DNA of 64,000 nt, from the NCBI GenBank assembly GCA_035529375.1, contig DATKWU010000009.1, positions 19,092 to 83,091 of the forward strand, given 5' to 3'. Every line of letters begins with the position of its first letter. Positions within the stretch are counted from its first letter, which is position 1. The translations under genes were made by a program, and so were the position numbers. The stretch comes from Patescibacteria group bacterium (GTDB lineage Bacteria; Patescibacteriota; Microgenomatia; PFEM01; JAHIFH01). The notes under the pieces were generated by a model that saw nothing but the letters and a program-made list of their open reading frames with translations, did not search any database and was not told the DNA's origin. Shown here in pieces: positions 41,347 through 58,796 of the stretch.

Positions 41347-42823
41347 AGATTAATTTCTGACTATCAATAATCAATTGCTGGCCGACCATTAGATAAATAA
41401 CCCCAAAATAAACTAAGCCGCCTAAGATAATAGAAAAAATCAGACCAAAAAGACCTTTAGCTAAGAATGATTCAAAAAGGAAAACAACGACTGCCATGAT
41501 TAAACTGGCGATTAAAGGTTTGATAATCGAACCAATAAAATTAAATTTAATATGTTGCTTGGTAATCCAAATCGCCACCACCGAACTAAAGGCAACCAGA
41601 GCCGAGGCCGCGGCGACGCCGTTAAAACCAAACTTAAGTGCTAAAAGAGGAAAGAAAATCCAAGTTAAAATTGTCCACATGACCATTAATTTAAAAACGG
41701 TTTTAATCTTGCCAATCGCCGTCAAAGCATTGGTCAGAGGTGTCGTCACCGCTCCCCAAAGACTGTTAATGGCGTAAAGATACAAAGCCAAGATCGCTAT
41801 TTCCCACTTACTGTAACGAGGTATAATCATCACCAAAGGCCGGGCTACCAAACAAAGACCAATCACTAAAGGAAAAACTAAGAGGGTAATAAAAAACAAG
41901 GTTTTTTCAATTGCCCGAGTTAACTCTTTCTTGTCATCTTGCATTCGGGCATAAGCGGGAAAAGTAACTTTAATAACCGCATCCATCACAAAACGAAGGG
42001 GCATTTGGGCCCACTTTTGCGCCCAGCCAAGGATACCAACACCAGTCGCCCCGATAATCTTCCAAAGAAAAACATTCATTAAACGATCTTTAATCACGGC
42101 TAAAAAAGAGTTGGTCTGATAAGGAACACCAAAGCGAAGCAGATGTTTTAAAGAATCTTTTTCAAAAGCAAAACCAATCTTCCAAGGAGAAAGCAAATAA
42201 ATCAAGATAACACCAACAAAGCCCCGAGCTAAAACGGCCCAGGCATAACTGGTGACGCCAAAGCCTTGCCAAGCTAAGAAAACGGCTAAACCATAAAAAA
42301 GCAAACTTTCAACAATTTCGACGACAACTAATAAATCAAATCTTAACTTTCTTTCTAACAAAACCGAAGGAATTGTTTTTAAAGAAGCTAGGAAAAAACC
42401 AACTGTCAAAGCCCAAAGTAACCAAATTCCAGACTGACTAATATTATAAAAACCGCGCAACCAGGGGGTGAGGAGGAAAACCAAAATAACTAAAGTTAAG
42501 ACTAGAGCTTGTTGAATCGTAAAAGTACTCCGAATATCCGCTAATTTCGGCTTCTCTTTTTTCTGAATCAAGGCTGCCGCCAAACCAATGTCAGAAAAAT
42601 AGCCTAGAATGGCAATTAATTCAGAAACAGCAAAAAAAAGACCAATCTCGGCCTGATTTAAAAAAACAGTCAGAATAAAAAAACCAAGAAAAGAAATAAT
42701 TTGAAGAATAAAAGTCCGTCCGGTTAGAGCCACGACCCCTTTGACGGCCCGTCCCTTAACTGTCTCTAAATCAATCTCCAGAGCGCTTTCGGGCATGCCT
42801 GCGATCATTTCTTCCATGCCCAT
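41324..42823 (-). CDS. Wzx-like flippase / polysaccharide biosynthesis protein (MOP superfamily)
   Basis: 499 aa with about 14 TM. The typical PST N-terminus is KGVVALTGRTFILQIISFLGFFILTVFLNQAEIGLFFAV. Confidence 0.7.
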   Translation of the reverse strand: MGMEEMIAGMPESALEIDLETVKGRAVKGVVALTGRTFILQIISFLGFFILTVFLNQAEIGLFFAVSELIAILGYFSDIGLAAALIQKKEKPKLADIRSTFTIQQALVLTLVILVFLLTPWLRGFYNISQSGIWLLWALTVGFFLASLKTIPSVLLERKLRFDLLVVVEIVESLLFYGLAVFLAWQGFGVTSYAWAVLARGFVGVILIYLLSPWKIGFAFEKDSLKHLLRFGVPYQTNSFLAVIKDRLMNVFLWKIIGATGVGILGWAQKWAQMPLRFVMDAVIKVTFPAYARMQDDKKELTRAIEKTLFFITLLVFPLVIGLCLVARPLVMIIPRYSKWEIAILALYLYAINSLWGAVTTPLTNALTAIGKIKTVFKLMVMWTILTWIFFPLLALKFGFNGVAAASALVAFSSVVAIWITKQHIKFNFIGSIIKPLIASLIMAVVVFLFESFLAKGLFGLIFSIILGGLVYFGVIYLMVGQQLIIDSQKLIYAIKKKI

Positions 42824-42840: not shown

Positions 42841-43626
42841 ATGAAAGGTGATAAAATATCAACAATGAAAAAAGTTAGTTTCAAAAGTAATGGTTTTAAG
42901 CTTGTCGGCATTCTTCATTCACCTTCTAAATCAACAAAAAAAGCAATTATTATGGCTCACGGATTAAAGGTTGATAAAGACGAAGGTGGTATTTTTATTC
43001 GAACTGCTAACAAACTAACTCAATTAGGAGTAGCAGTCTTCCGATTTGATTTTAGAGGTTGTGGTGAAAGCGAAGGAAAATTCGCCGATAGAACTATTCG
43101 CAGTGATATCCAGGATTTAGCCAATGCCTTCGGATTCATGGAATATGAAGGTTATCAGAAATTCAGTTTATTAGGAGCCAGTTGGGGTGGTGGTATTGGA
43201 GTTTTGTTTCTTAAAGATAATCCTAAGTTTATTAAATCATTAGTATTATGGAATCCTGCTCTTGATTATAAAAGCGGAATAAACAAACTTATCATTCCTT
43301 ATTTAAAAAGGAAAATTATTGAAATGATTAAAAAACGCACTTTTAAGATAAAAGCAGAAAAATTTGATTTCAACAAAAAATTAGTTATCCAGATGATAAA
43401 ATATAAACCTTATCAAGCTCTCAGACAAATTAGTTGTCCAACTTTAATCATTCATGGCGATAAAGACGAAAAAGTTCCGTTAGAAGACTCAATTAAATAC
43501 TACAAATTAACCAAAGGTCCATCAAAGCTAGAAATAATTAAAGGTTCCTCACATGGATTCCATATACCAGAGGCCGAAAAGAAAGTAATGGAGCTTACCT
43601 TAAACTTCTTCAAAGAAAACTGTTAA
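42841..43626 (+). CDS. Alpha/beta hydrolase fold protein
   Basis: The nucleophile elbow LLGASWGGGI (G-x-S-x-G), a late HG motif (GSSHGFH), and the length (261 aa) fit the dienelactone-hydrolase/BAAT-like alpha/beta hydrolases. Confidence 0.75.
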   Translation: MKGDKISTMKKVSFKSNGFKLVGILHSPSKSTKKAIIMAHGLKVDKDEGGIFIRTANKLTQLGVAVFRFDFRGCGESEGKFADRTIRSDIQDLANAFGFMEYEGYQKFSLLGASWGGGIGVLFLKDNPKFIKSLVLWNPALDYKSGINKLIIPYLKRKIIEMIKKRTFKIKAEKFDFNKKLVIQMIKYKPYQALRQISCPTLIIHGDKDEKVPLEDSIKYYKLTKGPSKLEIIKGSSHGFHIPEAEKKVMELTLNFFKENC

Positions 43627-45323
43627 TTTCTCTTTCTCTCCTGCCAAGCAAGCACAAAAAACAAACAAACAAAACTTAAGAGACTAATAGCATTAGCTAT
43701 TCCCCTTAATCTTGTGTTCCTGAACCAGCCAGTGACGGTCCGTTTGTTGACCGGCACCTCAACTTGAATTAAGCCTGTCTCTGGATTAACTTGGTGGTTT
43801 ACTTTTTCTGAATCAACAAAAATCTCCCAATTGGGAAAATCGAAAACAGGCACTTCAACAATTGAATTCTGATCACCGATAACATCAATGGTAAAACGCC
43901 AAAAATTTGACCTTTTATTAAAATCTCTCACCTTTGCTTCACCGGCAATCACCCAGGGTTCTGTTGGCGCCAGGTCGGTGGGAATTTTTTCTACCTGCTT
44001 TGGTACATAATCTGAAAGGGTGGCCATTGATTGGAGCCGCCATTCTTCTCCAGAAAGCTTCTCCTGATCAGTGAGTGGTGAATAATATTCTTCCGGATGA
44101 AAATAATCCAGATTCAAAACTAGAACCAAAAGGATTAAAACCAGACTTAAAAACAATTGGCTTCTTTTCTTTTCCGAAAAGGCGACTAAGCCGCCAACTA
44201 AGAATGAGCTGGCAAACATCGCTAAAGCTAAGAAGCGCCAGGGAAATTGGACGAATGATAAAAGGGGAATTGCTTCCCAAATAAAAACTGATTTAGCATG
44301 AGTCATAAAAACAGTGATGGCAAAAAGAAAAAAGAAAAAAACCAAGGACCAAGAAAGCTTTCTTTTTCGTTGCCACCAAAGATAAAGAAAAATTCCGCCA
44401 GTAATAATGACCAACCACCAGTGCGGCCAGCCGATTTGAAAGGCAAGATCATCATCAGGCCCAAGCCGAGAAGGACCATAACCCCAGCTTCGATCTAAGA
44501 ATAACTGTCTCACCGTGGCAAAATGATGACGAAAATCATAATAACCTGAAGTATGCATCTCGATCGTCACCAGCGATTTCTCAAAAAAGGCTGGCAAGAT
44601 AAAGAAAGCCGCCAGACCCGCCGCCCAAACAAAAACAATGCCTAAAGGAATAATTTTTTTCCAATCTTTTGTTTGAACAAGCCAATAGAAACCCCAAACA
44701 AAGGCAATGGGAACAAAAAGCAAGGCCATGATATTGTGAGAAAGAAATAAAAAAGTCAAAGAAAAAAGACTGGTTAAAAAGAAGGAAAATTTACCCGTCT
44801 TAACAAATTTGTAAATTCCCCAGAGAATCAGAGGGAAAAAAACAATCGCCCAAGATTCGGTCAAGGCCCCCCGAACATAAACATCAACCGCGTGATAAGG
44901 AGCGAGAACATAAAAGACACCAGCTACCATTCCTGCCCACTTGCCAAAAAACTCTTTAGTCAGAAGATACATAAAGATTCCTGATAGCAAAAAACTTAGG
45001 AAAAAAAGAATCTTAGCCACGTCAAGGAAATTCATCCCCAGTAAACGGAAAACCATGCCTAAATAGTAGGGAAAAACAGGGTGATAGTTATAAATCGGAT
45101 GACCATAACCAGCCCCCATGTCAGGCACCCAGCGACAAGGAATTTGGCCATCCTGAAAACATCTTTCCATCTCATAGAGACGCATGACCTGGACATCATC
45201 ATGCATCGAAAAATAACCTGGCCTAAGCAAAGCTAAGCCCGCCAAAATAGCTATGATTATTACCAAAATGAAAGGAATTTGATTTCTAATTTTATTTAAT
45301 TTATTTAGGTTTTCTTTTTTCAT
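43623..45323 (-). CDS. Polytopic membrane protein of a YfhO-related/GT-C-like family, tandem paralog A
   Basis: 566 aa. The N-terminal motif MHDDVQVMRLYEMERCFQDGQIPCRWVPDMGAGYGHPIYNYHP is shared with 45301..46992 and with the N-domain of 49339..52533. Confidence 0.55.
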   Translation of the reverse strand: MKKENLNKLNKIRNQIPFILVIIIAILAGLALLRPGYFSMHDDVQVMRLYEMERCFQDGQIPCRWVPDMGAGYGHPIYNYHPVFPYYLGMVFRLLGMNFLDVAKILFFLSFLLSGIFMYLLTKEFFGKWAGMVAGVFYVLAPYHAVDVYVRGALTESWAIVFFPLILWGIYKFVKTGKFSFFLTSLFSLTFLFLSHNIMALLFVPIAFVWGFYWLVQTKDWKKIIPLGIVFVWAAGLAAFFILPAFFEKSLVTIEMHTSGYYDFRHHFATVRQLFLDRSWGYGPSRLGPDDDLAFQIGWPHWWLVIITGGIFLYLWWQRKRKLSWSLVFFFFLFAITVFMTHAKSVFIWEAIPLLSFVQFPWRFLALAMFASSFLVGGLVAFSEKKRSQLFLSLVLILLVLVLNLDYFHPEEYYSPLTDQEKLSGEEWRLQSMATLSDYVPKQVEKIPTDLAPTEPWVIAGEAKVRDFNKRSNFWRFTIDVIGDQNSIVEVPVFDFPNWEIFVDSEKVNHQVNPETGLIQVEVPVNKRTVTGWFRNTRLRGIANAISLLSFVCLFFVLAWQERKRN

Positions 45324-46992
45324 TGATTAACCAACCGCCGATAAACAAAAGACTCGACAAAGTAAGAAAATCACCTATTATTCTGATTGGCGTTCTCTTT
45401 AGTTTGACATAAAAGTCATGTTCTCCTTCAGCGACGGCAAAGGTAATTAGCCCCAAATCATTTTGATAGTCAATCGGAGTTTCTTGACCATCAACCCGTA
45501 ATTCAAATTTGGGAAAATAAAACAAAGGCAATTGAATCTTGGCTTGTTCAGAAATAACCTTAATTTCTCCTTTTTGCCAGTCAGTCCCCTTTTCAAAATA
45601 GAAAACTTCCGCCTCACCAACAATCACTTCTGGCTGGGCTGGCGCTTTTCCCGCCGGCGGCGCTTTAGCAAAAACCGGCAAGTAATCAAAGATACTCGCC
45701 GTTACTTGTTTCTCCCAAAGTTCTCCAGAAAACTTATCTTGGTCAGTAATATCGAGCCAACCTATCGGCCTAAAATAGTTAACATTCAAGATGATCACTC
45801 CTGAAATCAATAAAATCCCCACTAACAGAGAATATTTTTTAAAATAAGAAACTATTGCTCCCGCCATCGTGGAAAAAGCAAAAATAACTAAGGCTAAAAA
45901 ACGCCAGGGAAACTGAAGGTAGGCTAAAAGGCTAATTTTATTCCAGATAAAAGTTGATCGCTGGTGAGCTAAAAAAGCACTGGCAAGCCCGACCGCTCCT
46001 AAAAAAATCAGGGTGAAAAAGGAAAACTTTTCCTTTTTCCAGAGTCGAAGACTAAAAACAAGAGCTAAAAAAGCAAAAAGCCAATGAAAAGTGCCGATCG
46101 CAAAAGTAAAATCATCGCCAGGCCCAAAGACGCTCGAACCATAGCCCCAATGGGTCGAAAAGAATAATTGGCGGAGAGAAACAAAGTGAGCCAGATAATT
46201 AAAGTAGCCGGAAAGCATTGATTCAACATGAACAAGATTTTTTTCAAAAACAACTGGTAAGATAAAAAAACCAGCCAGGCCGATACCAAGAATCGCCCCT
46301 CCAAGAATTTTGGGCAATAATTTCCACTCTCGATAATACCAAAGCAAAAACAGTCCCCAAAAAGCCGCGACGGGTGTAAAAATCAAAGAAGTAATATTAT
46401 GAGTTAAAAGCAGTCCTCCGTAACTCAAAGCCAAAAAGATAAGATATTTCGTCTTTTTTTGACGAACAAATTCAAGGATCGCCCAAAAAATTAATGGCAA
46501 AAAAACCAGGGCTGTAAATTCTCCTACGGCTCCCCGACTGTAAATGTCAGTCGCTCGATAGGGTGCATAAACATAAAAAACAGCCGCCACTAACCCGCCA
46601 AAATCGCCCCAAAGGGACCTTGACAGTAAAAACATGGCTAATCCGGAGAAAATAAAGGTCAAAATAAATTCAATCTTAATTGAAGCCAGGAAAGAAAAAC
46701 CAACCAAGTGAAAAACTTCCATCAGATAATAAGCTAAGGGAGGATAATAAATAAAGAGAGGATAGCCATAACCATAACCCAAATCAGGTACCCAGCGACA
46801 GGGAATTTGGCCATCCCGAAGACATTGATCAATCCCTAAAACCCTGATGGGCTGCATATCGTCATGCATCGGAAAATAACCAGGTCTCATCAGAGAATTA
46901 AAAGAAAAAAAGGCTAAAAAAAGCACCAGGAAAATAAAAAGAGGCAGTTTTAATTTTTTCATTAGTTTTAATTTTTTCATTTTTTCTGCCAA
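45301..46992 (-). CDS. Polytopic membrane protein of the same family, tandem paralog B
   Basis: 563 aa. MHDDMQPIRVLGIDQCLRDGQIPCRWVPDLGYGYGYPLFIYYP. Confidence 0.55.
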   Translation of the reverse strand: MAEKMKKLKLMKKLKLPLFIFLVLFLAFFSFNSLMRPGYFPMHDDMQPIRVLGIDQCLRDGQIPCRWVPDLGYGYGYPLFIYYPPLAYYLMEVFHLVGFSFLASIKIEFILTFIFSGLAMFLLSRSLWGDFGGLVAAVFYVYAPYRATDIYSRGAVGEFTALVFLPLIFWAILEFVRQKKTKYLIFLALSYGGLLLTHNITSLIFTPVAAFWGLFLLWYYREWKLLPKILGGAILGIGLAGFFILPVVFEKNLVHVESMLSGYFNYLAHFVSLRQLFFSTHWGYGSSVFGPGDDFTFAIGTFHWLFAFLALVFSLRLWKKEKFSFFTLIFLGAVGLASAFLAHQRSTFIWNKISLLAYLQFPWRFLALVIFAFSTMAGAIVSYFKKYSLLVGILLISGVIILNVNYFRPIGWLDITDQDKFSGELWEKQVTASIFDYLPVFAKAPPAGKAPAQPEVIVGEAEVFYFEKGTDWQKGEIKVISEQAKIQLPLFYFPKFELRVDGQETPIDYQNDLGLITFAVAEGEHDFYVKLKRTPIRIIGDFLTLSSLLFIGGWLINEKRKPK

Positions 46993-48581
46993 AATTCTTT
47001 CTTAACTTTAAAAAATAATAATTTATCCTCAATCCCCTTAGGGTTAATCGCTTTAGGATATTCTTGAATTAACTCCAACCCAGAAGCTTCCGGTGCTATC
47101 TGCAAACGACTCTGGTTGACCACCAGATAAACCTCATTATCAACCAAAGAATTGACTAAGCTGGGAGGAACACTAACAATTGGATAACCCACCCCAATCA
47201 CGGTTACGCCTGGGACTTTTTCCAAATAAATCTGCAAACCATCAGGCAGGGTTCCAAAAAAGCCTTCTGTGCCGACCAAGACACTTTTTTCTTTGGCTTT
47301 TTCCTTAACCAAGTCAGCAATTTCCTTAATTCCTTGGCCGGCTGACCATTCTTCAAGATAACCAGAACGCATTCTTCTTGGCAACGGCGCTTTTTCTGGT
47401 TGGGTCAATAAGAAATAATTATAATAAAGAGAAGGAATGATAATTAACAAAATCAGCAACCAAGAAACTGATAAACTAGATTGGACTTTTTTTTGGAACG
47501 AAACAGCCAATTTCTCAATCACCGCCACATAGAAATAGGCCGCTAAGATAATTAAAGGCCAAACAGTGAAAAGAATATAACGGGGCGTAAAGACCTTGGC
47601 AAAAACGGCTTGACCAAATAAGGGCAAAGTACTGATGAGAAAAAGCCAAGTGGCCTGTTGCCAATTTTCTCTCTTAAGCCACATCCAGGCTAAAGCCGCC
47701 AAAGCCAAAATTAAGATTGGCCAAGTCAGAAGATTAGGTAACCATCTAACCAAATCAAAAAAATGGGGTTTAAGAGGATCGAGAGGGTGAGCCAGAATAT
47801 CTTTAAACGAAAAGACGTAATCTTTATTTCGTAAAGCGATCATCTGGAAGTTAGCACCTAAACGGAGTAAATTATAAATCCCAAAAGCAAAAGCATAAAC
47901 CACACCCCAAAGAGAAACTGCCTGGCCAAAATGACGCCACTTCGCCAATTTTTTCAGCCGTCTAGTGGGAAAGGGATGAAATAAAAAAACAGTTGGTAAT
48001 AAAATGGCAAAAAAGAGCGCTGGTGATTTGGTGATTAAAGCGGCGCCCAAAATCATCCCGCTAATCATCGCCAGATCAAGACGCAAATGGCGAATTAAAA
48101 GAATCCCAAAATAAAAAACCCAAATCCCCCACATCGCCAATAAAGAATCAACTAAAGCCATCCGGTCAAAAAAAACAAAAAAGGGCACTATCGCATAAAA
48201 CAGGGCAGCGATTAAAGCCGTCTTTTTATCTTTAAAAAGAGCCAGAGTTAAAAGAAAAATACCAATTAAGGAGCCTAAGCCGGCCATGACTGATAAAAAT
48301 CTGCCAGCCGCCAGCGGGTTCTTAATCACCGCCAAAATTCCCATTAAAAGCCACATGAACAGGGGCTGTTTGCCGTCAGAAAGAGGTAAAAAACGCAGCG
48401 TCGGTTCGGCCTTCATTACTTGAGACCAGCGAATATAAATGGCCTCATCAGCAAAAATAGGGAGAATGGTTAAATTAATCAGTCGTAAGAAAAAGAAAAT
48501 CACTAAAATAACCATCCCCAAGCCCAACACCCAACCATAATCTTTTTTTAGCCTTTTAATCATAATCGCCTCGCCAGTCAT
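46977..48581 (-). CDS. GT-C glycosyltransferase, ArnT/PMT-like (GT83/GT39-like)
   Basis: 534 aa. The first loop INLTILPIFADEAIYIRWSQ carries the conserved acidic DE motif of ArnT-like enzymes. Has about 12 TM plus a C-terminal soluble domain. Confidence 0.7.
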   Translation of the reverse strand: MTGEAIMIKRLKKDYGWVLGLGMVILVIFFFLRLINLTILPIFADEAIYIRWSQVMKAEPTLRFLPLSDGKQPLFMWLLMGILAVIKNPLAAGRFLSVMAGLGSLIGIFLLTLALFKDKKTALIAALFYAIVPFFVFFDRMALVDSLLAMWGIWVFYFGILLIRHLRLDLAMISGMILGAALITKSPALFFAILLPTVFLFHPFPTRRLKKLAKWRHFGQAVSLWGVVYAFAFGIYNLLRLGANFQMIALRNKDYVFSFKDILAHPLDPLKPHFFDLVRWLPNLLTWPILILALAALAWMWLKRENWQQATWLFLISTLPLFGQAVFAKVFTPRYILFTVWPLIILAAYFYVAVIEKLAVSFQKKVQSSLSVSWLLILLIIIPSLYYNYFLLTQPEKAPLPRRMRSGYLEEWSAGQGIKEIADLVKEKAKEKSVLVGTEGFFGTLPDGLQIYLEKVPGVTVIGVGYPIVSVPPSLVNSLVDNEVYLVVNQSRLQIAPEASGLELIQEYPKAINPKGIEDKLLFFKVKKEFWQKK

Positions 48582-49308
48582 TGATTTTAACTCTTAAAAT
48601 CTCGAAAAGCATTTCCTTCGACTCTTTGATAAAATTTTTTTGTTTGCCGCCAACCACATCTCTATCTTCCCAGGCCACCGGCACCTCTTTAATCCGATAG
48701 CCTTTTTTTTCAGCCACAAAAAGCATTTCGACATCCCAAGCACCTACCCGCCAACCTTTTATTTCAGTTATTTGTTTAAAAATCCGCATCTTTCTAAAAA
48801 CCTCCTTACCGGCCTTCCTCTTAAAAGCCTTAAAACCACACTGGGTATCAATAATTTTGGGTAGGAAAAAGATTTGCCGAAAAGACCGGAAACCCCAGGA
48901 AATAATTTTCCGGTACCAAGGAAAGCGTTTCCTTTCTTTGCCTCGAGAGCCAATCACAATCTTAAAATCTTCTTCAAACCAGGGAAGTAATTTTTCCATC
49001 TCTTTAATGGGGACTGACAAATCCATATCCGTAAATAAGATAATCTCTCCTTTTGCTTTTTCCAAACCCGACTTAATGGCAAAAGGCTTACCAGCATGTT
49101 TATTTTTCTTTATTTTGAAACGAGAATGATATTGAGAGAATTTTTCAACCATTTTTAAACTCTTATCAGTTGAACCGTCATCAGAAACAATGACTTCACT
49201 AACATAATCTTGTTTTTTAAGATATTGATCAATTTCCTCTAAAACGCCTCTTTTGAGATTTTTCTCCTCGTTGAACATGGGAATAACAACAGAAAGATAG
49301 GGCTTCAT
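48556..49308 (-). CDS. GT2 polyprenyl-phosphate glycosyltransferase (DPM1/GtrB/ArnC-like)
   Basis: 250 aa. LSVVIPMFNEEKNL...EVIVSDDGSTDKS...ILFTDMDLS has the GtrB/ArnC-like size and motifs. It sits immediately upstream of, and overlaps, an ArnT-like GT-C gene. Confidence 0.75.
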   Translation of the reverse strand: MKPYLSVVIPMFNEEKNLKRGVLEEIDQYLKKQDYVSEVIVSDDGSTDKSLKMVEKFSQYHSRFKIKKNKHAGKPFAIKSGLEKAKGEIILFTDMDLSVPIKEMEKLLPWFEEDFKIVIGSRGKERKRFPWYRKIISWGFRSFRQIFFLPKIIDTQCGFKAFKRKAGKEVFRKMRIFKQITEIKGWRVGAWDVEMLFVAEKKGYRIKEVPVAWEDRDVVGGKQKNFIKESKEMLFEILRVKINDWRGDYD

Positions 49309-49338
49309 TTTTCTTTAAAGAAATTATACCTTATCCGC

Positions 49339-52300
49339 CTAAGGTTTAAAACCTGGAGGGATTTTGAGCCCAATGCCTCCATAAATTTCCTCAACTTCTT
49401 GAGGAGGAATGACTATTTGAAAAAGAGGGTCATCAGGATTTTGGCTTGGTTTGACTTGATAAAAGTCAAAGAGATAACGATAGCCGGCATTCATTCCCAG
49501 AGGGACTGAATAAGAAACATTGAATTTTTCTTCCTTGGCAATCTCGCCAATTCTCAAAACTACTTTTTCCTTATAATTTAAGCCTAATTGTTTGGACCCA
49601 AGTTGATTGACTAACTGACTACCTCTGAATAATAAAAGAAACAAGATTAAGAGAAAAACCAGTTGCCATTTTCTCATCACTTTAATTAAAAAGAGAGTCA
49701 AAAACAAAGCTAAAAAGGGATAAAGGAAATTAAAATAATATTCTGAAGGTCTCTGGCCAAAAATAGTAAAACCAAAAGGAAAGATTAACCAAAGAATGGT
49801 GGTGGCTAAATAAAACTTTTTCTTAAACTCTTCCGATTCTTTCTGCCAAAGAAAGATAATTATTCCCAAGGGCAAAAGATAAAATAAGAGAGGGAAAAAA
49901 GGAAGGTTAAAACCGCCAAAACCAGAGCTAATATTTCGCCAAACGGGCAGCCAGGCAAATAAATCGACTCCCCCGTTTTTCGGGGTAAGAAAATTAATCA
50001 ATGATCTGGTATTTAAGAACTGATGGCGCCAATCAAAAAGAAAAAGCGGTAAAAAAGTCAAGCCGATACCGATTAAAAAAGTAATTATTCTTTTGAAATT
50101 CAGTTTTTTATTAATCAGGAAAACTAAACTAAAAGGAATTAAATAGATTAATTGAAAATGAAAGTTAATTCCCATGCCGATTACTAAACCAAGGATTAAG
50201 CTAAAGACAAGAGAAGGTTTCTTAAAATACTTTGCCAAGAAAAACCAACTAAAGATAACCATTAAGGGCACTAAAATTGGATTCCAGGCAATTTGATCAA
50301 TCTCAATTAAGGATGGATGGAGTGACCAAATCAGGAGAAAAATCAAAGCGATTTGGCGATCAAACAACTTTTGCAATAGCCAATAAGCCAAAGCAAAAAA
50401 AGAAAGATTATAAAAGACAATAAATAAAACAATTGCTTGGGGATGAAGGGTAGTGATGAAGTAAAAAGGAGTTAAAAGATAGGTAAAATAAGGACCAAGG
50501 AAAAAGCCTTCTGGCCCCAAAACTCGAGGACCGATTAAAGTCAACTTCCCTTCCGTCAAGATCTGCTTAACGACCAAGGCGTCTCGTTCTTGATCCCAAT
50601 CAAAAATGACTCTTTCGTTAAGATGATAAAAACGGAAAAAAGAAAAAATTAGGAAAACAAGTAAAAGAGGAATCAGAAAAGAAAATTTTTTGAATTTTGG
50701 CAAATTTAATTTCGTTTTCCAAAAAAGTAAAACTAACCATGAAAGTAAAAAGAAGAGGCTAAGGCCATTGAAAAATTTCTGGGTTGGTGTTTGGACAATT
50801 CTCCATTCAACAGAATTATCACCTACATCTAACTTCACATTTTTTAAACAAATTCTGCCTTGACAATTAAAGTCATTTTGAACCAAATTTTGGTTAAAAA
50901 ATAACTGATAAGCTCCAGGAAAATATTCCAAATTGAGCCTGATGTCAGTCTCCAGCTCAACTGGACTCTCAAGAGTGATTTTGCCAAAGGTGTTGCCGCG
51001 TTCTACCTGATACGGGATTTCCACTCCTTCTTCTAAAGTCTTTATTGTTCCGCTCTGTTGGGCAAAAGGCGGCGGTTGATATTCTTCTGGAGAAGGTTTA
51101 ATTCTAGCAACGAAAGCATCGGCTTTTTCTATTGGGCCGACAAGAATGAAAGGTTCTTCAAAAGTACATCCCTTCTCGCTTTCACGATATAAAACATCAT
51201 CTTCAAAAGTAGTGGTGGAAAACCGGTGAATGTGGCGGCTTTCAAATTGGTAATAGGGGGTGATATCGTTGGTCGGTTGGGATAAAAGATGATTTCTATT
51301 ACCCACCAGGGCAAAAAAGATAAAAATAAAGGCTAAGCCTAAAGAAACCTTTTTCTCCTTTATCTTAGCTAAAAGAAATCCAGCGAGAGCGGCAATCGTA
51401 AAGCTAGTCACCCCCAAAAGTCGCCAAGAGAATTGAATTTTTTGAAGAAAAACTACTCTTTCCCAAAGAAAAAGCGAGTAAGGCAAGATAAGAAAAATTA
51501 AAAATAAGGAAAGAAAAAACCAGGAAAGAATCAGCGAATTTTCAAGGAAATATTGTCGTCTTTTTTTACTTCTTAGCCACTCCCAAACAAGAAACAAACC
51601 AGAGAAAAAAAGAACTAACCATTGGGCATAACCAAGCATAAAGGACATTTGATCATATTTTGTTCCCGGAGAAGAGTAATAATAGCCCCAAGGAGAACGA
51701 ATTAACTGTCTTAAAGTAGGAAAATGGTCCTGATAATTAATTGTCTGGAGGGTCGCGAGTCTAGTTTGACCTTGTTCCACCCAGGCGGGACCAATAAAAA
51801 AGGCAGCTAAACCAAAAAAACTTAAAAAAACCAAAAGGATAAAAACAATTTTCGTTTTGTCAAAAAACTTAAGCAAAATCATTTTATAAAGAATAAAAAA
51901 AGCAATAATCGGCAAGAGAAACATCGCCGCAAAGTTGTGGGAAATTAATAATAAGCTACCAACAATCACGGTTAAAAATCCTTTTAAATAAAGCGATTTA
52001 CCTTTGAGCTTGTCTTCAAACAAACCACTGATCAGAAAAAGCAATAACGGTAAAATCAGATAACTCATAAATTCGGGGCTGCCACGGACGAAAATTAGTA
52101 AAAAACGATAGGGGACAAAAAGATAGAGAATGGCGCCAACAAAACTGGCTAAGTAGTTTTTAGTCTCTCTTGAAAGCCAAAGATAAAAAAAGACGGGAGT
52201 CAAGAGAAGGGTGAAAAAATAAATAAACTTCAAAGAGAGAATCACATCGTTTACCAAAAAGTTGATAAGAAAAACGAGATAATAAATCAGGGGGTAGAAA

Positions 52301-52533
52301 AAATTATAGATAGGGATACCACCGTAATGATTTAAACTCCCGGCCCAGCGAAGAGGAAAATGGCCTTCTTTCAAAGTCGTAATTGCATCAAAACTCCGGG
52401 CGATATGGTGGTCGCCATCGTGGGTAAAAAAAGCATAGTGAGTAAAAAGACCTTTTGAGCAATAAACTCCCAGAAAAGCTAACACCAAAATAGCAATCAG
52501 CGAGAATTTATTTTTTTTCAAGAATTTCTTCAT
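49339..52533 (-). CDS. 1064-aa fusion of two GT-C-type membrane domains (N: YfhO-related HDD-family; C: ArnT-like DE-motif family)
   Basis: The N-terminus THDGDHHIARSFDAITTLKEGHFPLRWAGSLNHYGGIPIYNFFYP parallels ORFs 43623/45301. Around residue 600, FYHLNERVIFDWDQERDALVVKQILTEGKLTLIGPRV parallels the N-terminus of ORF 52508 (FYRLPEYMTFLGDEGRDALVWLRMIRNGKFVLIGPV). Confidence 0.6.
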   Translation of the reverse strand: MKKFLKKNKFSLIAILVLAFLGVYCSKGLFTHYAFFTHDGDHHIARSFDAITTLKEGHFPLRWAGSLNHYGGIPIYNFFYPLIYYLVFLINFLVNDVILSLKFIYFFTLLLTPVFFYLWLSRETKNYLASFVGAILYLFVPYRFLLIFVRGSPEFMSYLILPLLLFLISGLFEDKLKGKSLYLKGFLTVIVGSLLLISHNFAAMFLLPIIAFFILYKMILLKFFDKTKIVFILLVFLSFFGLAAFFIGPAWVEQGQTRLATLQTINYQDHFPTLRQLIRSPWGYYYSSPGTKYDQMSFMLGYAQWLVLFFSGLFLVWEWLRSKKRRQYFLENSLILSWFFLSLFLIFLILPYSLFLWERVVFLQKIQFSWRLLGVTSFTIAALAGFLLAKIKEKKVSLGLAFIFIFFALVGNRNHLLSQPTNDITPYYQFESRHIHRFSTTTFEDDVLYRESEKGCTFEEPFILVGPIEKADAFVARIKPSPEEYQPPPFAQQSGTIKTLEEGVEIPYQVERGNTFGKITLESPVELETDIRLNLEYFPGAYQLFFNQNLVQNDFNCQGRICLKNVKLDVGDNSVEWRIVQTPTQKFFNGLSLFFLLSWLVLLFWKTKLNLPKFKKFSFLIPLLLVFLIFSFFRFYHLNERVIFDWDQERDALVVKQILTEGKLTLIGPRVLGPEGFFLGPYFTYLLTPFYFITTLHPQAIVLFIVFYNLSFFALAYWLLQKLFDRQIALIFLLIWSLHPSLIEIDQIAWNPILVPLMVIFSWFFLAKYFKKPSLVFSLILGLVIGMGINFHFQLIYLIPFSLVFLINKKLNFKRIITFLIGIGLTFLPLFLFDWRHQFLNTRSLINFLTPKNGGVDLFAWLPVWRNISSGFGGFNLPFFPLLFYLLPLGIIIFLWQKESEEFKKKFYLATTILWLIFPFGFTIFGQRPSEYYFNFLYPFLALFLTLFLIKVMRKWQLVFLLILFLLLFRGSQLVNQLGSKQLGLNYKEKVVLRIGEIAKEEKFNVSYSVPLGMNAGYRYLFDFYQVKPSQNPDDPLFQIVIPPQEVEEIYGGIGLKIPPGFKP

Positions 52534-54088
52534 TAGGGTAAGAGTGGATCAATTTGTAAATTTTAATCCCTTTGACTTCCCACTCTTGGTCAATTTTAGA
52601 CCAACCAAAATTAGCGATTTCTGCTTGAGGATCAGTGGTCGGCTGACAAGGCAGTTTTTCGCAGACAACAAAAAGCTGGTCCGTAATCGTCTCTTCAGTT
52701 CTTAGGGGTTCGATTGCCGTTGGCGGTATCCCCCACTTCTCCATAAAAAAGGCATAAGCCGCCGCGTAATTTCTTTCGGCAATTAAACCAAGATTAAAAG
52801 GCTTGCCCTTGGCTTGACCAACGAGAAATTGGGCTATTTCCTGAGTCCTCCCTAATTGATTATTCGAAGCTCTTTTTAAAAGATTGTTTTGACAGGCTAA
52901 AGAGATAAGAAAAGTGAAAATAACGAAAAAAATAATTTTCCCGTAGATTTTTTTCTGCCAAGTTTGAGACAAAACCCAACCAACTAAAAGAAAAGGCGCG
53001 GGAAAGAAAAAGCCGAAATAATGATCATAGATATGCTGTTTGTAATTACCTAAACCAAACAAACCAACAATTAACCAAATTAAGATGAGAAACAGGGGTT
53101 TGTTTTCCTGCCAAATCTTTGACCAGTTTGGCTTTCTAGAATAACGATTAAAACTAAAACCAACTAATCCTAAAATTGTTAGAATTACCAGCCAACCACC
53201 ATAGGCTTCGTTTTTAGCGGCAATTAATCTTGTCCATACCTGTGAAGCTAAATTCCAGATTTGAGGAATAGCTTTATAAAACTTAAGATTAACGGTTGTC
53301 TGACGAACAGTGAAAAAGGCTTTAAAAGCCTTAAAATTAATAAAATTATGACGTAAATCAAACCAAGCTAAAGGAAGAATTGTCAGAACGCCAAAAATTA
53401 AAACACAGACCAGAGTGTAAAGAAACAAAGATTTTATTTTAGCCTTGTTTTTCAAGACGTCTTTTAAAGTTAAAAGCCAAAAGAAACTGACTGTCGGAAT
53501 TAAAAGTAAACCCAGATAATGAGATTGCAGGGCAAAGGATAAACCAAGACCAACAATCGGAATCCACCAAAATCTTTGTTTGAGCCAAAATTGATAAACA
53601 CCATAAATTGTTAGTAAAGCGAAAAAAGGCATAATATTAGGATTCCAAGAAGAACGAGAGTAAACAATGACCACCGGTGAAACCGCGTAGAGTAAGGCCG
53701 CAATTAAACCAGCTTGTTGATCAAACCATTCACGGCCGACCCACCAAACAAAACCGATAGTCACCACCCCTAAGAAAGCTACCATCGCACTCGGACCAAT
53801 TGGTGATAAACCAAAAAGAAAAAACCAAGGTAAGGCAAAATAATAATATAAAGGGCCAAGATACATATTACCAATGGAAGTCACCGGACCAATTAAAACA
53901 AACTTTCCGTTTCTAATCATCCTTAACCAAACAAGAGCGTCTCGACCTTCATCACCCAAAAAAGTCATGTACTCAGGGAGGCGATAAAAACGTAAAAAAG
54001 CACCAACCAGAAGAATCAGACTTAAAATGATGACTTCAGTCTGATTATTTTTAACAAACTTGACTATTTTCTTTTTAAATATCTTCAT
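52508..54088 (-). CDS. GT-C glycosyltransferase, ArnT/PMT-like
   Basis: 526 aa. The FLGDEGRDALVW acidic loop follows TM1 and is followed by about 12 TM. Confidence 0.7.
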   Translation of the reverse strand: MKIFKKKIVKFVKNNQTEVIILSLILLVGAFLRFYRLPEYMTFLGDEGRDALVWLRMIRNGKFVLIGPVTSIGNMYLGPLYYYFALPWFFLFGLSPIGPSAMVAFLGVVTIGFVWWVGREWFDQQAGLIAALLYAVSPVVIVYSRSSWNPNIMPFFALLTIYGVYQFWLKQRFWWIPIVGLGLSFALQSHYLGLLLIPTVSFFWLLTLKDVLKNKAKIKSLFLYTLVCVLIFGVLTILPLAWFDLRHNFINFKAFKAFFTVRQTTVNLKFYKAIPQIWNLASQVWTRLIAAKNEAYGGWLVILTILGLVGFSFNRYSRKPNWSKIWQENKPLFLILIWLIVGLFGLGNYKQHIYDHYFGFFFPAPFLLVGWVLSQTWQKKIYGKIIFFVIFTFLISLACQNNLLKRASNNQLGRTQEIAQFLVGQAKGKPFNLGLIAERNYAAAYAFFMEKWGIPPTAIEPLRTEETITDQLFVVCEKLPCQPTTDPQAEIANFGWSKIDQEWEVKGIKIYKLIHSYPNEEILEKK

Positions 54089-54806
54089 TTTTTAATTTCT
54101 TTAATTTTTTTCTTAATCTAAAAAGATCAGTCAAACCACCCAGAATCACTTTTAAGCTTGCTCCCGTGGCTTGGCCTTCTTGCCTGGGAAGATGACGGAC
54201 CCCTATTTCTACAATTTTGAAGCCCGCCTTTTTGGCTTTGATTAATAACTCACTGGTAATAAAAGGACCTCTTTCGGATTCAAGTGCCGGTATTTTTTCA
54301 ATTACTTCTTTTTTAATCATTTTAAAACCACAATCAATGTCTTTTACTTTTAAACCAAAAAGAAAATAAACCGCTGGTTGCCATAAATATTTTGACCCCC
54401 AAATCCGATAAAAAGGCACTTGGCGCTTCAGGTAATAACCAATTACCAAATCCGCCTTAGTTTCCTGTTGAGTTTTAATGAATTCTGTCACTTCACTAAA
54501 ATCAAACTGACCGTCACCATCAGTAAAAACAATCCAGGGATATTGAGAATGATAAAGACCGGATTTAAGCGCCGCCCCATAGCCACGATTGGGGGTGTGG
54601 GTAATCAAGCGAATACGGGATTCTTTTTTTATCAAGCTCCTAACAATCTCACCCGTCTTATCAGTTGAACCATCATCAATCACCATTACTTCCCATTTTT
54701 TGGCTACCTGGGGAATAATCTTAAGAGCTTTAGTGACGGTAGCCTCAATATTAGCTTCTTCATTGTAGGCCGGAAAGAAAACCGAAAGGGCGTCTAGCTT
54801 CTCCAT
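54075..54806 (-). CDS. GT2 polyprenyl-phosphate glycosyltransferase (DPM1/GtrB/ArnC-like)
   Basis: 243 aa. LSVFFPAYNEEANI...VMVIDDGSTDKT...IVFTDGDGQ. It is adjacent to, and overlaps, a GT-C gene. Confidence 0.75.
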   Translation of the reverse strand: MEKLDALSVFFPAYNEEANIEATVTKALKIIPQVAKKWEVMVIDDGSTDKTGEIVRSLIKKESRIRLITHTPNRGYGAALKSGLYHSQYPWIVFTDGDGQFDFSEVTEFIKTQQETKADLVIGYYLKRQVPFYRIWGSKYLWQPAVYFLFGLKVKDIDCGFKMIKKEVIEKIPALESERGPFITSELLIKAKKAGFKIVEIGVRHLPRQEGQATGASLKVILGGLTDLFRLRKKLKKLKNEDI

Positions 54807-58130: not shown

Positions 58131-58796
58131 ATGAAGATCGATATTCTCACCCTCTTTCCAAAGATGTTTAAGGGCCCCTTTGCTGAGAGTATTATTAAAC
58201 GGGCCCAGGAGAAAGAATTAACAAAGATTAAAATTCATGATCTGAGAAAGTGGACAAAAGACAAACACCAAACCGTTGATGACCGACCTTTTGGTGGCGG
58301 CCCAGGGATGATCTTAATGGTTGAACCTATCTACCAGGCTCTAAAAGAACTTCGGCAAAAACAAACTAAAACAATTCTTTTAACCCCTCAAGGTAAAATC
58401 TTTAAACAAACCATGGCTAAAAAACTGGCCAAGGAAAAACATCTAATTTTTATTTGCGGTCATTACGAAGGGGTGGATGAAAGAATCCGGAAACATTTAG
58501 TTGACGAAGAAATCTCGATTGGCGATTATGTTCTGACGGGTGGCGAACTACCAGCCATGATTGTCATTGACACCATTATCAGACTAATTCCTGGTGTTTT
58601 AAAAAAAGAAGAAGCGGTTAAAAACGAGTCTTTTACTAATAATCTCCTGGAGTACCCTCAATATACCCGACCGGCTAAATTTAAAGGCTGGCAAGCTCCA
58701 GAGATTCTTCTCTCCGGCAACCATCAAAAAATCAAAGAGTGGCGCCAAAAGAAAGCCAAAGAAAAAACTAAAAAAAGAAGGCCGGATTTGCTTTAA
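58131..58796 (+). CDS. trmD: tRNA (guanine37-N1)-methyltransferase TrmD
   Basis: IDILTLFPKMF, DDRPFGGGPGMIL, ICGHYEGVDERI, SIGDYVLTGGELPAMIVIDTIIRL are all hallmark TrmD motifs. 221 aa. Confidence 0.95.
   Translation: MKIDILTLFPKMFKGPFAESIIKRAQEKELTKIKIHDLRKWTKDKHQTVDDRPFGGGPGMILMVEPIYQALKELRQKQTKTILLTPQGKIFKQTMAKKLAKEKHLIFICGHYEGVDERIRKHLVDEEISIGDYVLTGGELPAMIVIDTIIRLIPGVLKKEEAVKNESFTNNLLEYPQYTRPAKFKGWQAPEILLSGNHQKIKEWRQKKAKEKTKKRRPDLL

What the first reader, a model, noticed from the sequence alone, without database searches (positions are those of the whole stretch)
43623..54088. HDD-motif membrane protein family: two tandem paralogs plus a 1064-aa fusion to an ArnT-like domain
ORFs 43623..45323 and 45301..46992 share an N-terminal motif (MHDDxQ...GQIPCRWVPDxGxGYGxP) and have a similar length of about 565 aa. 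The same motif (THDGDHH...PLRWAGSLNHYGGIP) opens the 1064-aa ORF 49339..52533. The second half of that ORF restarts with an ArnT-like loop (FDWDQERDALV) homologous to the N-terminus of the neighbouring ORF 52508..54088 (LGDEGRDALV). It therefore looks like a natural fusion of two different GT-C-type modules. That could catalyse two successive transfers or couple two activities on one polypeptide.
Basis: seen in the sequence. Interest (0 to 1): 0.5.

Follow-up and report, generated by a model that had tools for sequence, protein, structure and literature searches.

The report
Two membrane glycosyltransferases fused into one
A 1064-residue membrane protein in a tiny uncultured (CPR/Microgenomates) bacterium is a genuine end-to-end fusion of two different lipid-sugar-dependent glycosyltransferases; close relatives encode them as two overlapping neighbour genes, which suggests the two enzymes work as a pair in building the cell-surface glycan.

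Summary
ORFs 43623-45323 and 45301-46992 are 41% identical paralogues (E=4e-141) of Pfam PF10131, a GT-C-clan family of unknown function.

Residues 1-608 of the 1064-aa ORF (49339-52533, minus strand) are a third PF10131 module. Residues 614-1064 are a PMT_2-type GT-C module, 27% identical over about 445 aligned positions to neighbour ORF 52508-54088 (E=2e-32).

The fusion is not an artefact:
- An independent MAG (94% nt identity) has the same in-frame junction.
- About 75 further protein clusters from Shapirobacteria, Woesebacteria and other Microgenomates are full-length fusions.

Close relatives (57-74% identity) carry the same two modules as adjacent genes with overlapping stop/start, in the same operon. 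A bootstrapped tree shows at least two independent fused/split switches. A net 44-nt deletion accounts for this lineage's fusion.

The operon also encodes two polyprenyl-phosphate-sugar-synthase-like GT2 enzymes, more GT-Cs and a Wzx flippase.

The most likely function is a two-site, outward-facing glycosyltransferase pair for an envelope glycan. Substrates are unknown. This is a new architectural variant of a known enzyme class and is of moderate interest.

The parts
49339..52533 (-). 1064-aa fusion gene: PF10131-type GT-C module joined in frame to a PMT_2-type GT-C module
   Evidence: ORF. Pfam PF10131 at residues 76-236 (27.1 bits, cut-off 26.4) and PMT_2 at residues 681-827 (24.3 bits, cut-off 26.1). 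AF2 model has pLDDT 88.2 and pTM 0.75. 76 full-length homologues aligned.
50710..52533 (-). Module 1 (residues 1-608): PF10131 GT-C domain comprising a TM bundle, an extracytoplasmic beta-sandwich and a C-terminal TM helix
52405..52422 (-). Loop-1 motif HDGDHH (residues 38-43) directly after TM1; H38-D39 is the putative catalytic or metal-binding site of module 1
   Evidence: H38 and D39 are invariant in 76 fused proteins. H38 is invariant and D39 at least 90% conserved when stand-alone PF10131 proteins are added. Translation verified. The catalytic role is inferred from the position of the loop-1 acidic residue in GT-C enzymes.
50794..51216 (-). Extracytoplasmic all-beta (sandwich-like) domain of module 1 (residues ~440-580), with invariant C456, C557 and C562
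   Evidence: AF2 strands at 492-579. Acidic loop, KR=15 vs DE=26. Weak fold matches to accessory beta-sandwich domains of GH127/GH146/GH66 enzymes. Cysteine conservation.
50710..50787 (-). C-terminal TM helix of module 1 (residues 583-608); it returns the chain to the cytoplasm and makes the fusion topologically possible
   Evidence: AF2 helix at 583-608. Hydropathy. The stand-alone paralogues end with the same TM helix plus a basic tail.
50695..50709 (-). Junction/linker (LNLPK, residues 609-613) within a short basic cytoplasmic stretch KTKLNLPKFKK
   Evidence: The only internal stretch with pLDDT below 50 apart from 287-294. Linker length and sequence are not conserved among fused orthologues. 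Relative to split relative L001, the window and L005 lack a net 44 nt here.
49342..50694 (-). Module 2 (residues 614-1064): PMT_2-type GT-C domain with a small C-terminal alpha/beta domain
50581..50598 (-). Loop-1 motif WDQERD (residues 646-651) after TM1 of module 2; putative catalytic acidic cluster
   Evidence: W646, D647, R650 and D651 are invariant and E649 is 97% conserved in 76 fused proteins. The counterpart in neighbour ORF 52508 is GDEGRD.
45301..46992 (-). Stand-alone PF10131 paralogue B (563 aa)
   Evidence: PF10131 at 40.8 bits. 41% identical to paralogue A.
43623..45323 (-). Stand-alone PF10131 paralogue A (566 aa)
   Evidence: PF10131 at 36.6 bits. A lineage-variable accessory: 2 copies here and in L005, 1 in L009 and L018, 0 in most loci.
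52508..54088 (-). PMT_2-type GT-C (526 aa), closest paralogue of module 2
   Evidence: PMT_2 at 48.9 bits. E=2e-32 to module 2. Conserved directly upstream of the fusion in most loci checked.
54075..54806 (-). GT2a, a small soluble-type GT2; probable polyprenyl-phosphate sugar synthase
   Evidence: Glycos_transf_2, E=1.9e-32. Best solved relatives are ArnC, Dol-P-Man synthase and GtrB.
48556..49308 (-). GT2b, a second small GT2; probable polyprenyl-phosphate sugar synthase
   Evidence: Glycos_transf_2, E=5.2e-29. Best solved relatives are Dol-P-Man synthase, GtrB and ArnC.
46977..48581 (-). PMT_2-type GT-C (534 aa); not detectably similar to module 2 by BLASTP
   Evidence: PMT_2 at 46.4 bits. 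No significant BLASTP match to the fusion. Conserved after GT2b.
54856..56019 (+). Divergently transcribed PMT-like GT-C (387 aa), conserved at the head of the operon
   Evidence: PMT at 24.5 bits; NCBIfam 'cell surface glycopolymer formation protein' family at 1.7e-15, below its cut-off. Synteny.
41324..42823 (-). Wzx/MOP-family flippase, conserved downstream in the same locus
   Evidence: Polysacc_synt_3, E=5e-51; MOP flippase, E=2.2e-42. Synteny.
39652..41346 (-). Conserved 564-aa polytopic membrane protein with no family assignment
   Evidence: No Pfam or NCBIfam hit. Syntenic in L006, L009, L017, L018 and L020. No similarity to the PF10131 profile.

Best explanation
The 1064-aa ORF is a real, evolutionarily recurrent, in-frame fusion of two distinct GT-C-fold membrane glycosyltransferases. 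Module 1 is a PF10131-type enzyme (about 13 TM helices, an extracytoplasmic beta-sandwich and a final TM helix). Module 2 is a PMT_2-type enzyme.

In sister lineages the same two modules are separate adjacent genes whose stop and start codons overlap. In this lineage a net 44-nt deletion removed the overlap and put both in one frame. The fusion is topologically neutral, because PF10131 proteins end with a TM helix that returns the chain to the cytoplasm, which is where TM1 of the next GT-C has to begin.

The pair sits in a tightly overlapping operon that is conserved across Microgenomates: GT2a, PMT_2, [PF10131::PMT_2], GT2b, PMT_2, 0-2 extra PF10131 copies, Wzx, and an unknown membrane protein.

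Inferred mechanism:
1. The two small GT2 enzymes load sugars onto polyprenyl phosphate at the cytoplasmic face.
2. The lipid-linked sugars are flipped across the membrane.
3. The two active sites of the fusion, each at the outer membrane surface and built on an invariant acidic loop-1 motif, transfer sugars to the same extracytoplasmic acceptor (a wall-associated glycopolymer or glycoprotein). They act in consecutive or coupled steps, as a covalent counterpart of GT-C heterodimers such as Pmt1-Pmt2 or EmbA-EmbB.

Shown: homology, fold, fusion/split distribution, conserved synteny and conserved motifs. Inferred: donor type, both modules being active, physical and functional coupling, and the acceptor.
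For: - Homology of each half to its predicted neighbour: E=5e-40, 1e-34 and 2e-32. Pfam PF10131 and PMT_2. PF10131 belongs to GT-C clan CL0111 (PMC7801869).
- Real fusion: about 75 further full-length clusters at 37-44% identity. Independent MAG L005 has the same in-frame junction with surrounding substitutions.
- Split state in identical synteny: L001, L003/L015, L019, L021 and L023. Many stand-alone N-type and C-type representatives exist.
- Repeated switching: bootstrap 100% for ((Q,L005 fused),L001 split) and for (L007 fused,L019 split).
- Both modules stay under selection: invariant H38, D39, R46, R62, R150, E154, H199, N200 and E253 in module 1; W646, D647, R650, D651, D746, N751, H792 and D834 in module 2.
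- Topology: C-terminal TM helix, then a basic linker, then TM1.
- pTM 0.75 for the whole chain is above what module 1 alone could contribute (about 0.52), which hints at a defined inter-module arrangement.
- Donor enzymes: the best solved relatives of GT2a and GT2b are ArnC, Dol-P-Man synthase and GtrB.
- The general scheme of GT-A plus flippase plus GT-C for extracytoplasmic glycosylation is described in PMC8035078.
Against: - There is no biochemical evidence for any PF10131 protein; the literature search found only one paper, and it lists the family as function unknown.
- The linker is unconserved and modelled with low confidence. The state flips repeatedly, so covalent linkage itself is evidently not required. 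The fusion could be a near-neutral consequence of overlapping genes in a compact genome.
- Inter-module contact could not be examined because no coordinates or PAE were available.
- Module 2 of the window protein falls just below the PMT_2 gathering score (24.3 vs 26.1).
- An in-frame TTG at residue 610 means separate translation of module 2 cannot be formally excluded.
- Donor and acceptor identities are entirely inferred.
Confidence: 0.7

Rival explanations
1. Neutral gene fusion. The two GT-C genes are merely neighbours in a compact operon with overlapping stop/start codons. Small indels fuse or split them at no cost. The two modules work independently on different steps or acceptors and have no physical coupling.
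For: - Repeated fused/split switching.
- The linker is variable in length and sequence and has low pLDDT.
- Nearly all genes of the operon overlap by 14-26 nt.
- PF10131 modules are also found fused to other partners: another PF10131, YfhO-like and PMT-like modules. This suggests a general propensity to fuse rather than a specific partnership.
Against: - The N-type and C-type genes are always adjacent and in the same order wherever both were found.
- The fused form persists across deeply diverged lineages at 37-44% identity.
- Full-length pTM of 0.75 suggests a defined arrangement.
Confidence: 0.2
2. Only one module is catalytic. The other is a pseudo-enzyme that acts as a scaffold or acceptor-binding or donor-delivery subunit. 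Non-catalytic GT-C-fold proteins are known, for example PIG-U/GAB1 in GPI transamidase.
For: - PMC8035078 speculates that small GT-Cs may need a partner protein for acceptor recognition.
- Module 1 carries the beta-sandwich that could bind the acceptor glycan.
Against: Both modules keep invariant acidic/His/Arg clusters in loop 1 and further invariant polar residues in the TM core across 76 sequences. This pattern is typical of active sites rather than scaffolds.
Confidence: 0.12
3. It is a protein O-mannosyltransferase (CAZy GT39), as some public records name the orthologues ('glycosyltransferase family 39 protein').
For: - NCBI names for P0023, P0053 and P0059.
- PMT_2 Pfam hits.
Against: - The fusion has no PF02366 (PMT) hit.
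- The label derives from a generic Pfam domain.
- Profile search against PDB sequences found nothing.
Confidence: 0.08
4. Sequencing or assembly artefact: a missed stop or frameshift joins two genes.
For: The junction lies in A/T-rich low-complexity DNA with homopolymer runs. Close relatives are split.
Against: - An independent MAG (L005, 93.8% nt identity) has the same in-frame junction with several nearby substitutions.
- P0001 (92% identity, ENA) is also 1064 aa.
- About 75 diverged fused clusters come from many projects.
- The difference from the split relative is a net 44 nt, not a 1-nt slip.
Confidence: 0.02

Closest known systems
Pfam PF10131 (PTPS_related), GT-C clan CL0111
   Same: Module 1 and the two tandem paralogues score above the family's gathering threshold. 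The polytopic N-terminal core is followed by a soluble extracytoplasmic domain.
   Different: The family has no characterised member and no solved structure. Here it is fused to a second GT-C. The loop-1 motif is HDGDHH in the fused subfamily and MHDD in the stand-alone paralogues.
Heterodimeric GT-C enzymes: yeast Pmt1-Pmt2 (PDB 6P25/6P2R) and mycobacterial EmbA-EmbB (PDB 7BVC/7BVF)
   Different: Those partners are close paralogues on separate polypeptides. Here the partners belong to two different Pfam families (hhalign E only 2.4e-4) and are covalently joined or translationally coupled. An actual interface was not demonstrated here.
Multi-component transmembrane glycosylation systems (GtrB/CsbB-type GT-A + GtrA/Wzx flippase + GT-C such as YfhO, GacL, GtlB; PMC8035078)
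   Same: The operon logic matches: polyprenyl-phosphate-sugar-synthase-like GT2 genes lie next to GT-C genes, with a Wzx flippase and a GT2-GtrA fusion nearby. This resembles the GT-A/GT-C gene pairs csdAB/CD/EF of L. lactis.
   Different: This case has far more GT-C modules: 7 in the immediate cluster and at least 13 in the 64-kb window. It has two GT2 donors, and its GT2s lack TM segments. One GT-C pair is fused. The organism is a CPR bacterium whose envelope glycans are uncharacterised.
ArnT (GT83) and bacterial/eukaryotic PMT (GT39), i.e. the PMT_2/PMT Pfam families
   Different: No ArnT- or PMT-specific NCBIfam model matched. The fusion has no PF02366 hit. The loop-1 motif is W-D-x-E-R-D rather than the PMT 'DE' motif. 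Identity to solved members is 8-14%.

Membership tests
GT-C superfamily (Pfam clan CL0111): module 1 | Significant match to a clan member family above its curated threshold | tested here: met
   PF10131 at 27.1 bits vs cut-off 26.4 for the fusion; 36.6 and 40.8 bits for the paralogues. Clan membership of PF10131 is stated in PMC7801869.
GT-C superfamily: module 1 | GT-C fold: structural similarity to solved GT-C enzymes | tested here: met
GT-C superfamily: module 1 | Conserved acidic residue in the first extracytoplasmic loop after TM1 | tested here: met
   H38-D39 are invariant in 76 fused proteins. H38 is invariant and D39 at least 90% conserved with stand-alone members added. The motif lies right after TM1. 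The catalytic role itself was not tested.
GT-C superfamily: module 2 | Significant match to a clan member family above its curated threshold | tested here: inconclusive
   PMT_2 scores 24.3 bits, below the 26.1 cut-off, for the window protein. Orthologue P0059 scores 36.8 bits. Paralogue ORF 52508, which matches module 2 at E=2e-32, scores 48.9 bits.
GT-C superfamily: module 2 | GT-C fold and loop-1 acidic motif | tested here: met
GT-C superfamily: both modules | Use of a polyprenyl-phosphate-linked sugar donor at the extracytoplasmic face | not testable with these tools
   Indirect support only: the adjacent GT2 enzymes most resemble ArnC, Dol-P-Man synthase and GtrB.
Protein O-mannosyltransferase (CAZy GT39 / Pfam PF02366 PMT) | Match to the PMT family model | tested here: not met
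   The fusion has no PF02366 hit at E<=0.1. Only the neighbours 52508, 46977 and 54856 give weak PMT hits.
Protein O-mannosyltransferase (GT39) | Transfer of mannose from polyprenyl-P-Man to Ser/Thr of proteins | not testable with these tools
   No biochemical data. The NCBI 'family 39' names on orthologues derive from the generic PMT_2 domain.
ArnT (GT83) lipid A aminoarabinose transferase | Match to ArnT-specific curated models | tested here: not met
Oligosaccharyltransferase STT3/AglB/PglB | WWDxG motif in the C-terminal soluble domain | tested here: not met
   No 'WWD' anywhere in the protein. The soluble domain of module 1 is an all-beta sandwich. STT3 Pfam hits paralogue A only weakly (17.8 bits, below the 24.5 cut-off).
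Multi-component transmembrane glycosylation system (GT-A + flippase + GT-C) | Co-located polyprenyl-P-sugar synthase-type GT-A, candidate flippase and GT-C genes | tested here: met
   GT2a and GT2b; Wzx at 41324-42823 and GT2-GtrA at 56924-58090; GT-C genes. Gene order is conserved in most of the 18 related loci checked. Function was not tested.

The most novel reading that the evidence does not exclude
The fused (or translationally coupled) PF10131::PMT_2 pair could be an obligate pseudo-heterodimeric, two-active-site extracytoplasmic glycan synthase. It would alternately draw on the two polyprenyl-phosphate sugars made by GT2a and GT2b to polymerise or elaborate a disaccharide-repeat envelope polymer essential to Microgenomates. 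That would be a GT-C-based assembly line unlike Wzy- or ABC-dependent routes. More generally, the C-terminal TM helix of PF10131 would serve as a 'connector' that lets GT-C enzymes be chained end to end, as seen with PF10131, YfhO-like and PMT-like partners.
Probability: 0.12. Interest if true: 0.75.

Novelty: new variant of a known kind. Interest (0 to 1): 0.42.

Why it matters
GT-C enzymes build N-glycans, O-mannose, the mycobacterial arabinan targeted by ethambutol, and lipid A and teichoic-acid decorations. Several of them work as dimers of separate subunits.

A natural, repeatedly evolved covalent fusion of two different GT-C families is a 'Rosetta-stone' indication that a PF10131 enzyme and a PMT_2 enzyme are functional partners. 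This gives the first contextual handle on PF10131, a large family with no known function: the combined two-module profile drew about 18,000 hits, which also include PMT_2-type relatives.

It also points to a conserved, probably important, envelope-glycan operon in CPR/Microgenomates bacteria, whose cell surfaces are almost unstudied.

A single-chain two-GT-C protein would be a convenient target for cryo-EM and for reconstituting two consecutive lipid-linked sugar transfers. On its own, though, it remains an uncharacterised membrane enzyme with generic database annotation, so the immediate surprise for a specialist is moderate.

Tried and rejected
- A profile search of the 76-sequence alignment against all PDB sequences gave no hit at E<=1, so the fold had to be established from predicted structures.
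- The AFDB50 fold library was unavailable. I could therefore not see how UniProt names fused members.
- Locus L028 first looked 'split' but is a run of masked N and was reclassified as fused.
- L031 has the two hits in reversed order and on a mis-binned contig; I left it uninterpreted.
- The first bootstrap run with Biopython timed out and was redone with a numpy implementation.
- I tested whether the conserved 564-aa membrane protein 39652-41346 is a cryptic PF10131 relative, because it has a 'GHD' after TM1. hhalign gave E=0.16, so this was rejected.
- I tested whether module 2 is related to the other PMT_2 gene, 46977-48581. There was no significant BLASTP match.
- Literature searches for PF10131/PTPS_related, for GT-C with Patescibacteria, and for tandem or dual GT-C fusions found no paper on this architecture. 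The library is incomplete, so this is not proof of absence.
- The window has no tRNAs that could help with taxonomy.
- An OST identity was considered because STT3 and AglB top the Foldseek list. It was rejected because there is no WWDxG motif and the soluble domain is different.

Full report
**1. Observation**

The similarities are far beyond chance:
- ORF 43623-45323 vs ORF 45301-46992: 41% identity over 549 residues, E=4e-141.
- Residues 34-397 of the 1064-aa ORF vs the first paralogue: 31%, E=5e-40.
- Residues 15-539 vs the second paralogue: 28%, E=1e-34.
- Residues 620-1030 vs ORF 52508-54088: 27% over 445 aligned positions, E=2e-32.

The other PMT_2 gene of the cluster (46977-48581) shows no significant similarity to the fusion.

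**2. What the modules are**

Pfam places the 'HDD' proteins in PF10131 (PTPS_related): 36.6, 40.8 and 27.1 bits against a cut-off of 26.4. The second half of the fusion and its neighbour fall in PMT_2. PF10131 belongs to the GT-C clan CL0111 and is listed as 'function unknown' in the only paper found that mentions it (PMC7801869).

A profile of 76 fused proteins found no solved structure by sequence, so I used predicted structures.
- The full-length model is confident: pLDDT 88.2, pTM 0.75. The only low-confidence stretches are residues 1-4, 287-294 and the linker 610-612.
- With the full-length model, several chains score markedly higher than with module 1 alone: Pmt4 22.8, ALG12 19.8, ALG3 17.1 vs 12.0, GPI-MT-I 16.1 vs 13.7, ALG6 12.9 vs 9.8. 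This indicates that module 2 is independently a GT-C fold.
- The two modules are only remotely related to each other: hhalign E=2.4e-4, colinear over 324 columns.

'Two different GT-C-type modules' is therefore accurate.

**3. Anatomy**

Module 1 (residues 1-608) is laid out as follows:
- TM1.
- A loop carrying H38-D39 (HDGDHH).
- A helical TM bundle up to about residue 416.
- An acidic extracytoplasmic region (residues 415-585) that contains an all-beta sandwich (strands 492-579) and invariant C456, C557 and C562.
- A final TM helix at 583-608.

A short basic stretch (KTKLNLPKFKK) leads straight into TM1 of module 2 (residues 614-635). After that come the loop motif W646-D-Q-E-R-D651, a second TM bundle and a small C-terminal alpha/beta domain.

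The stand-alone PF10131 paralogues also end in a TM helix plus a basic tail. The chain is therefore already back in the cytoplasm, where the next N-in GT-C must begin, so the fusion needs no topological adjustment.

Across 76 fused proteins, both modules retain many invariant polar residues:
- Module 1: H38, D39, R46, R62, R150, E154, H199, N200, E253.
- Module 2: W646, D647, R650, D651, D746, N751, H792, D834.

**4. Real fusion or artefact**

The search of 5.8 billion protein clusters returned P0001 (92% identity, 1064 aa) and about 75 further full-length clusters of roughly 994-1071 aa. These have 37-44% identity and 95-100% coverage, and come from Shapirobacteria, Woesebacteria, Microgenomatus and unclassified Patescibacteria.

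An independent MAG contig (L005) is 93.8% identical at the nucleotide level over the gene. It carries the same in-frame junction with several nearby substitutions. An assembly or frameshift artefact is therefore excluded for practical purposes.

**5. Split state and evolution**

Several of the closest relatives are split. P0003 (74% identity to module 1, 622 aa) is followed by a 465-aa PMT_2-like gene that overlaps it by 4 nt. P0065 (57%, 617 aa) is followed by a 466-aa gene that overlaps by 14 nt. Both have the same flanking genes as in the window.

Among species-representative genomes:
- Fused: L005-L014, L016-L018, L020, and L028 (masked Ns).
- Split but adjacent: L015, L019, L021, L023 and the more distant L036. 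L001, from the contig look-up of P0003, is also split.

A bootstrapped NJ tree of the concatenated modules gives 100% support for ((window, L005: fused), L001: split), 100% for adding split L015, and 100% for (L007 fused, L019 split). There were therefore at least two independent changes of state within the window's own clade.

Relative to L001, the window and L005 lack a net 44 nt spanning the stop/start overlap. In L001 the downstream gene lies in frame +2, and 44 = 2 mod 3, so this length difference is exactly what is needed to join the frames.

The exhaustive search of 1.84 billion representatives shows only about 8 fused representatives among the top 150. There are many stand-alone N-type proteins (~545-585 aa) and C-type proteins (~450-470 aa), so the split form is common.

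**6. Context**

The operon is tight, with overlaps of 14-26 nt and a single 30-nt gap. Its gene order is conserved across most of the 18 related loci checked:

(-)PMT-like GT-C | GT2a | PMT_2 | [PF10131::PMT_2, fused or split] | GT2b | PMT_2 | 0-2 stand-alone PF10131 | Wzx | 564-aa unknown membrane protein.

There are two copies here and in L005, one in L009 and L018, and none in most other loci.

The best solved relatives of GT2a and GT2b are ArnC, Dol-P-Man synthase and GtrB, all polyprenyl-phosphate glycosyltransferases. This matches the 'multi-component transmembrane glycosylation system' scheme of GT-A + flippase + GT-C (PMC8035078).

The whole 64-kb window is an envelope-glycan island with at least 13 GT-C modules.

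**7. Mechanism (inferred)**

1. The GT2 enzymes charge polyprenyl phosphate with sugars.
2. After flipping, the two outward-facing active sites of the fusion transfer sugars onto a common extracytoplasmic acceptor in consecutive or coupled steps.
3. The beta-sandwich of module 1 plausibly helps to hold the glycan acceptor.

Three observations suggest that the two proteins act as a pair:
- The N-then-C adjacency is strict.
- The split forms are translationally coupled.
- The full-length pTM of 0.75 exceeds the roughly 0.52 that module 1 alone could contribute.

This would be analogous to the Pmt1-Pmt2 or EmbA-EmbB heterodimers. The variable, low-confidence linker and the repeated switching show that covalent linkage is not itself essential.

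The main rival is a near-neutral fusion of independent neighbours. Other rivals are one module being a pseudo-enzyme, or a plain GT39 O-mannosyltransferase. The GT39 label has no specific support: the fusion has no PF02366 hit, and the fold matches do not discriminate between specificities.

**8. Known versus new**

Orthologues are already in public databases, as 'hypothetical protein' or 'glycosyltransferase family 39 protein'. Both modules belong to known families. I found no paper describing tandem GT-C fusions or any function for PF10131, but the searchable library is incomplete.

Public data hold other end-to-end GT-C fusions that involve PF10131:
- PF10131::PF10131 (P0117, P0124). The window's tandem paralogues therefore also occur fused elsewhere.
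- YfhO-like::PF10131 (P0099, P0101, P0103).
- PF10131::PMT-like (P0194).

I rate the finding as a new architectural variant of a known enzyme class. It is real and evolutionarily informative, it is of moderate interest, and its substrates are unknown.

Noticed in passing
window 13981-56019 (many genes): The 64-kb window is one large envelope-glycan island with at least 13 GT-C-type modules. These are PMT_2 at 13981-15822(+), 23059-24705 and 24702-26378; PMT at 26395-28092; GT87 at 28729-29985 and 34801-36072; YfhO at 32391-34808; and the seven modules in the cluster studied. This is a remarkable density for a small-genome CPR bacterium.
   Followed up: partly
window 39652-41346 (-): A 564-aa polytopic membrane protein has no Pfam or NCBIfam match. 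It is conserved next to Wzx in at least five related loci. It could be an unrecognised polymerase, ligase or GT-C. hhalign found no similarity to the PF10131 profile (E=0.16).
   Followed up: partly
proteins P0117, P0124, P0146, P0194, P0099, P0101, P0103 (public databases): Other end-to-end GT-C fusions involve PF10131. These are PF10131::PF10131 (each half 29-38% identical to the window's tandem paralogues), a 1670-aa protein with at least two PF10131 copies plus DUF3105, PF10131::PMT-like (the 54856-56019 type), and YfhO-like::PF10131. PF10131 therefore looks like a generally fusion-prone GT-C module.
   Followed up: partly
L016 (JBBTWD010000002.1), 712-aa stop-to-stop ORF upstream of the fused gene: The GT2a-like and PMT_2a-like genes appear joined in a single 712-aa open frame. 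This could be a GT-A::GT-C (donor synthase plus transferase) fusion. It was not checked for sequencing error.
   Followed up: no
window 52321-52323 (residue 71 of the fusion): Cys71 in loop 1 is near-invariant in the family and present in L001, L015, L007 and L006, but it is Gly in the window protein. The invariant C456, C557 and C562 remain. A probable loop-1-to-beta-domain disulfide has apparently been lost in this lineage.
   Followed up: partly
window 56924-58090 (-): A GT2 domain is fused to a GtrA/DPMS transmembrane domain (388 aa). It is a third candidate polyprenyl-phosphate sugar synthase with a built-in GtrA-like, possibly flippase, module just upstream of the cluster. RmlD (58793-59680) lies nearby.
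   Followed up: no
window 4936-6480 (-) and 8088-11022 (+): A 514-aa protein carries two tandem SAM-methyltransferase domains. Two adjacent Phosphodiest/alkaline-phosphatase-superfamily proteins follow. All lie within the same glycan island and may be glycan-modifying enzymes (methylation, phospho-substituent transfer).
   Followed up: no
loci L005, L006, L012, L018, L028 and others (genome contigs record titles): Several MAG records carrying this typical Microgenomates operon are titled 'uncultured Gammaproteobacteria', 'Pseudomonadales', 'Alphaproteobacteria' or 'Candidatus Methanoperedens'. These are probably placeholder or wrong taxonomic labels, or mis-binned contigs.
   Followed up: no
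window 50704-50706 (residue L610): An in-frame TTG codon lies in the linker, a few codons before TM1 of module 2, with a purine-rich stretch (GGAAAA) upstream. Separate translation of module 2 from an internal start cannot be excluded from sequence alone.
   Followed up: no
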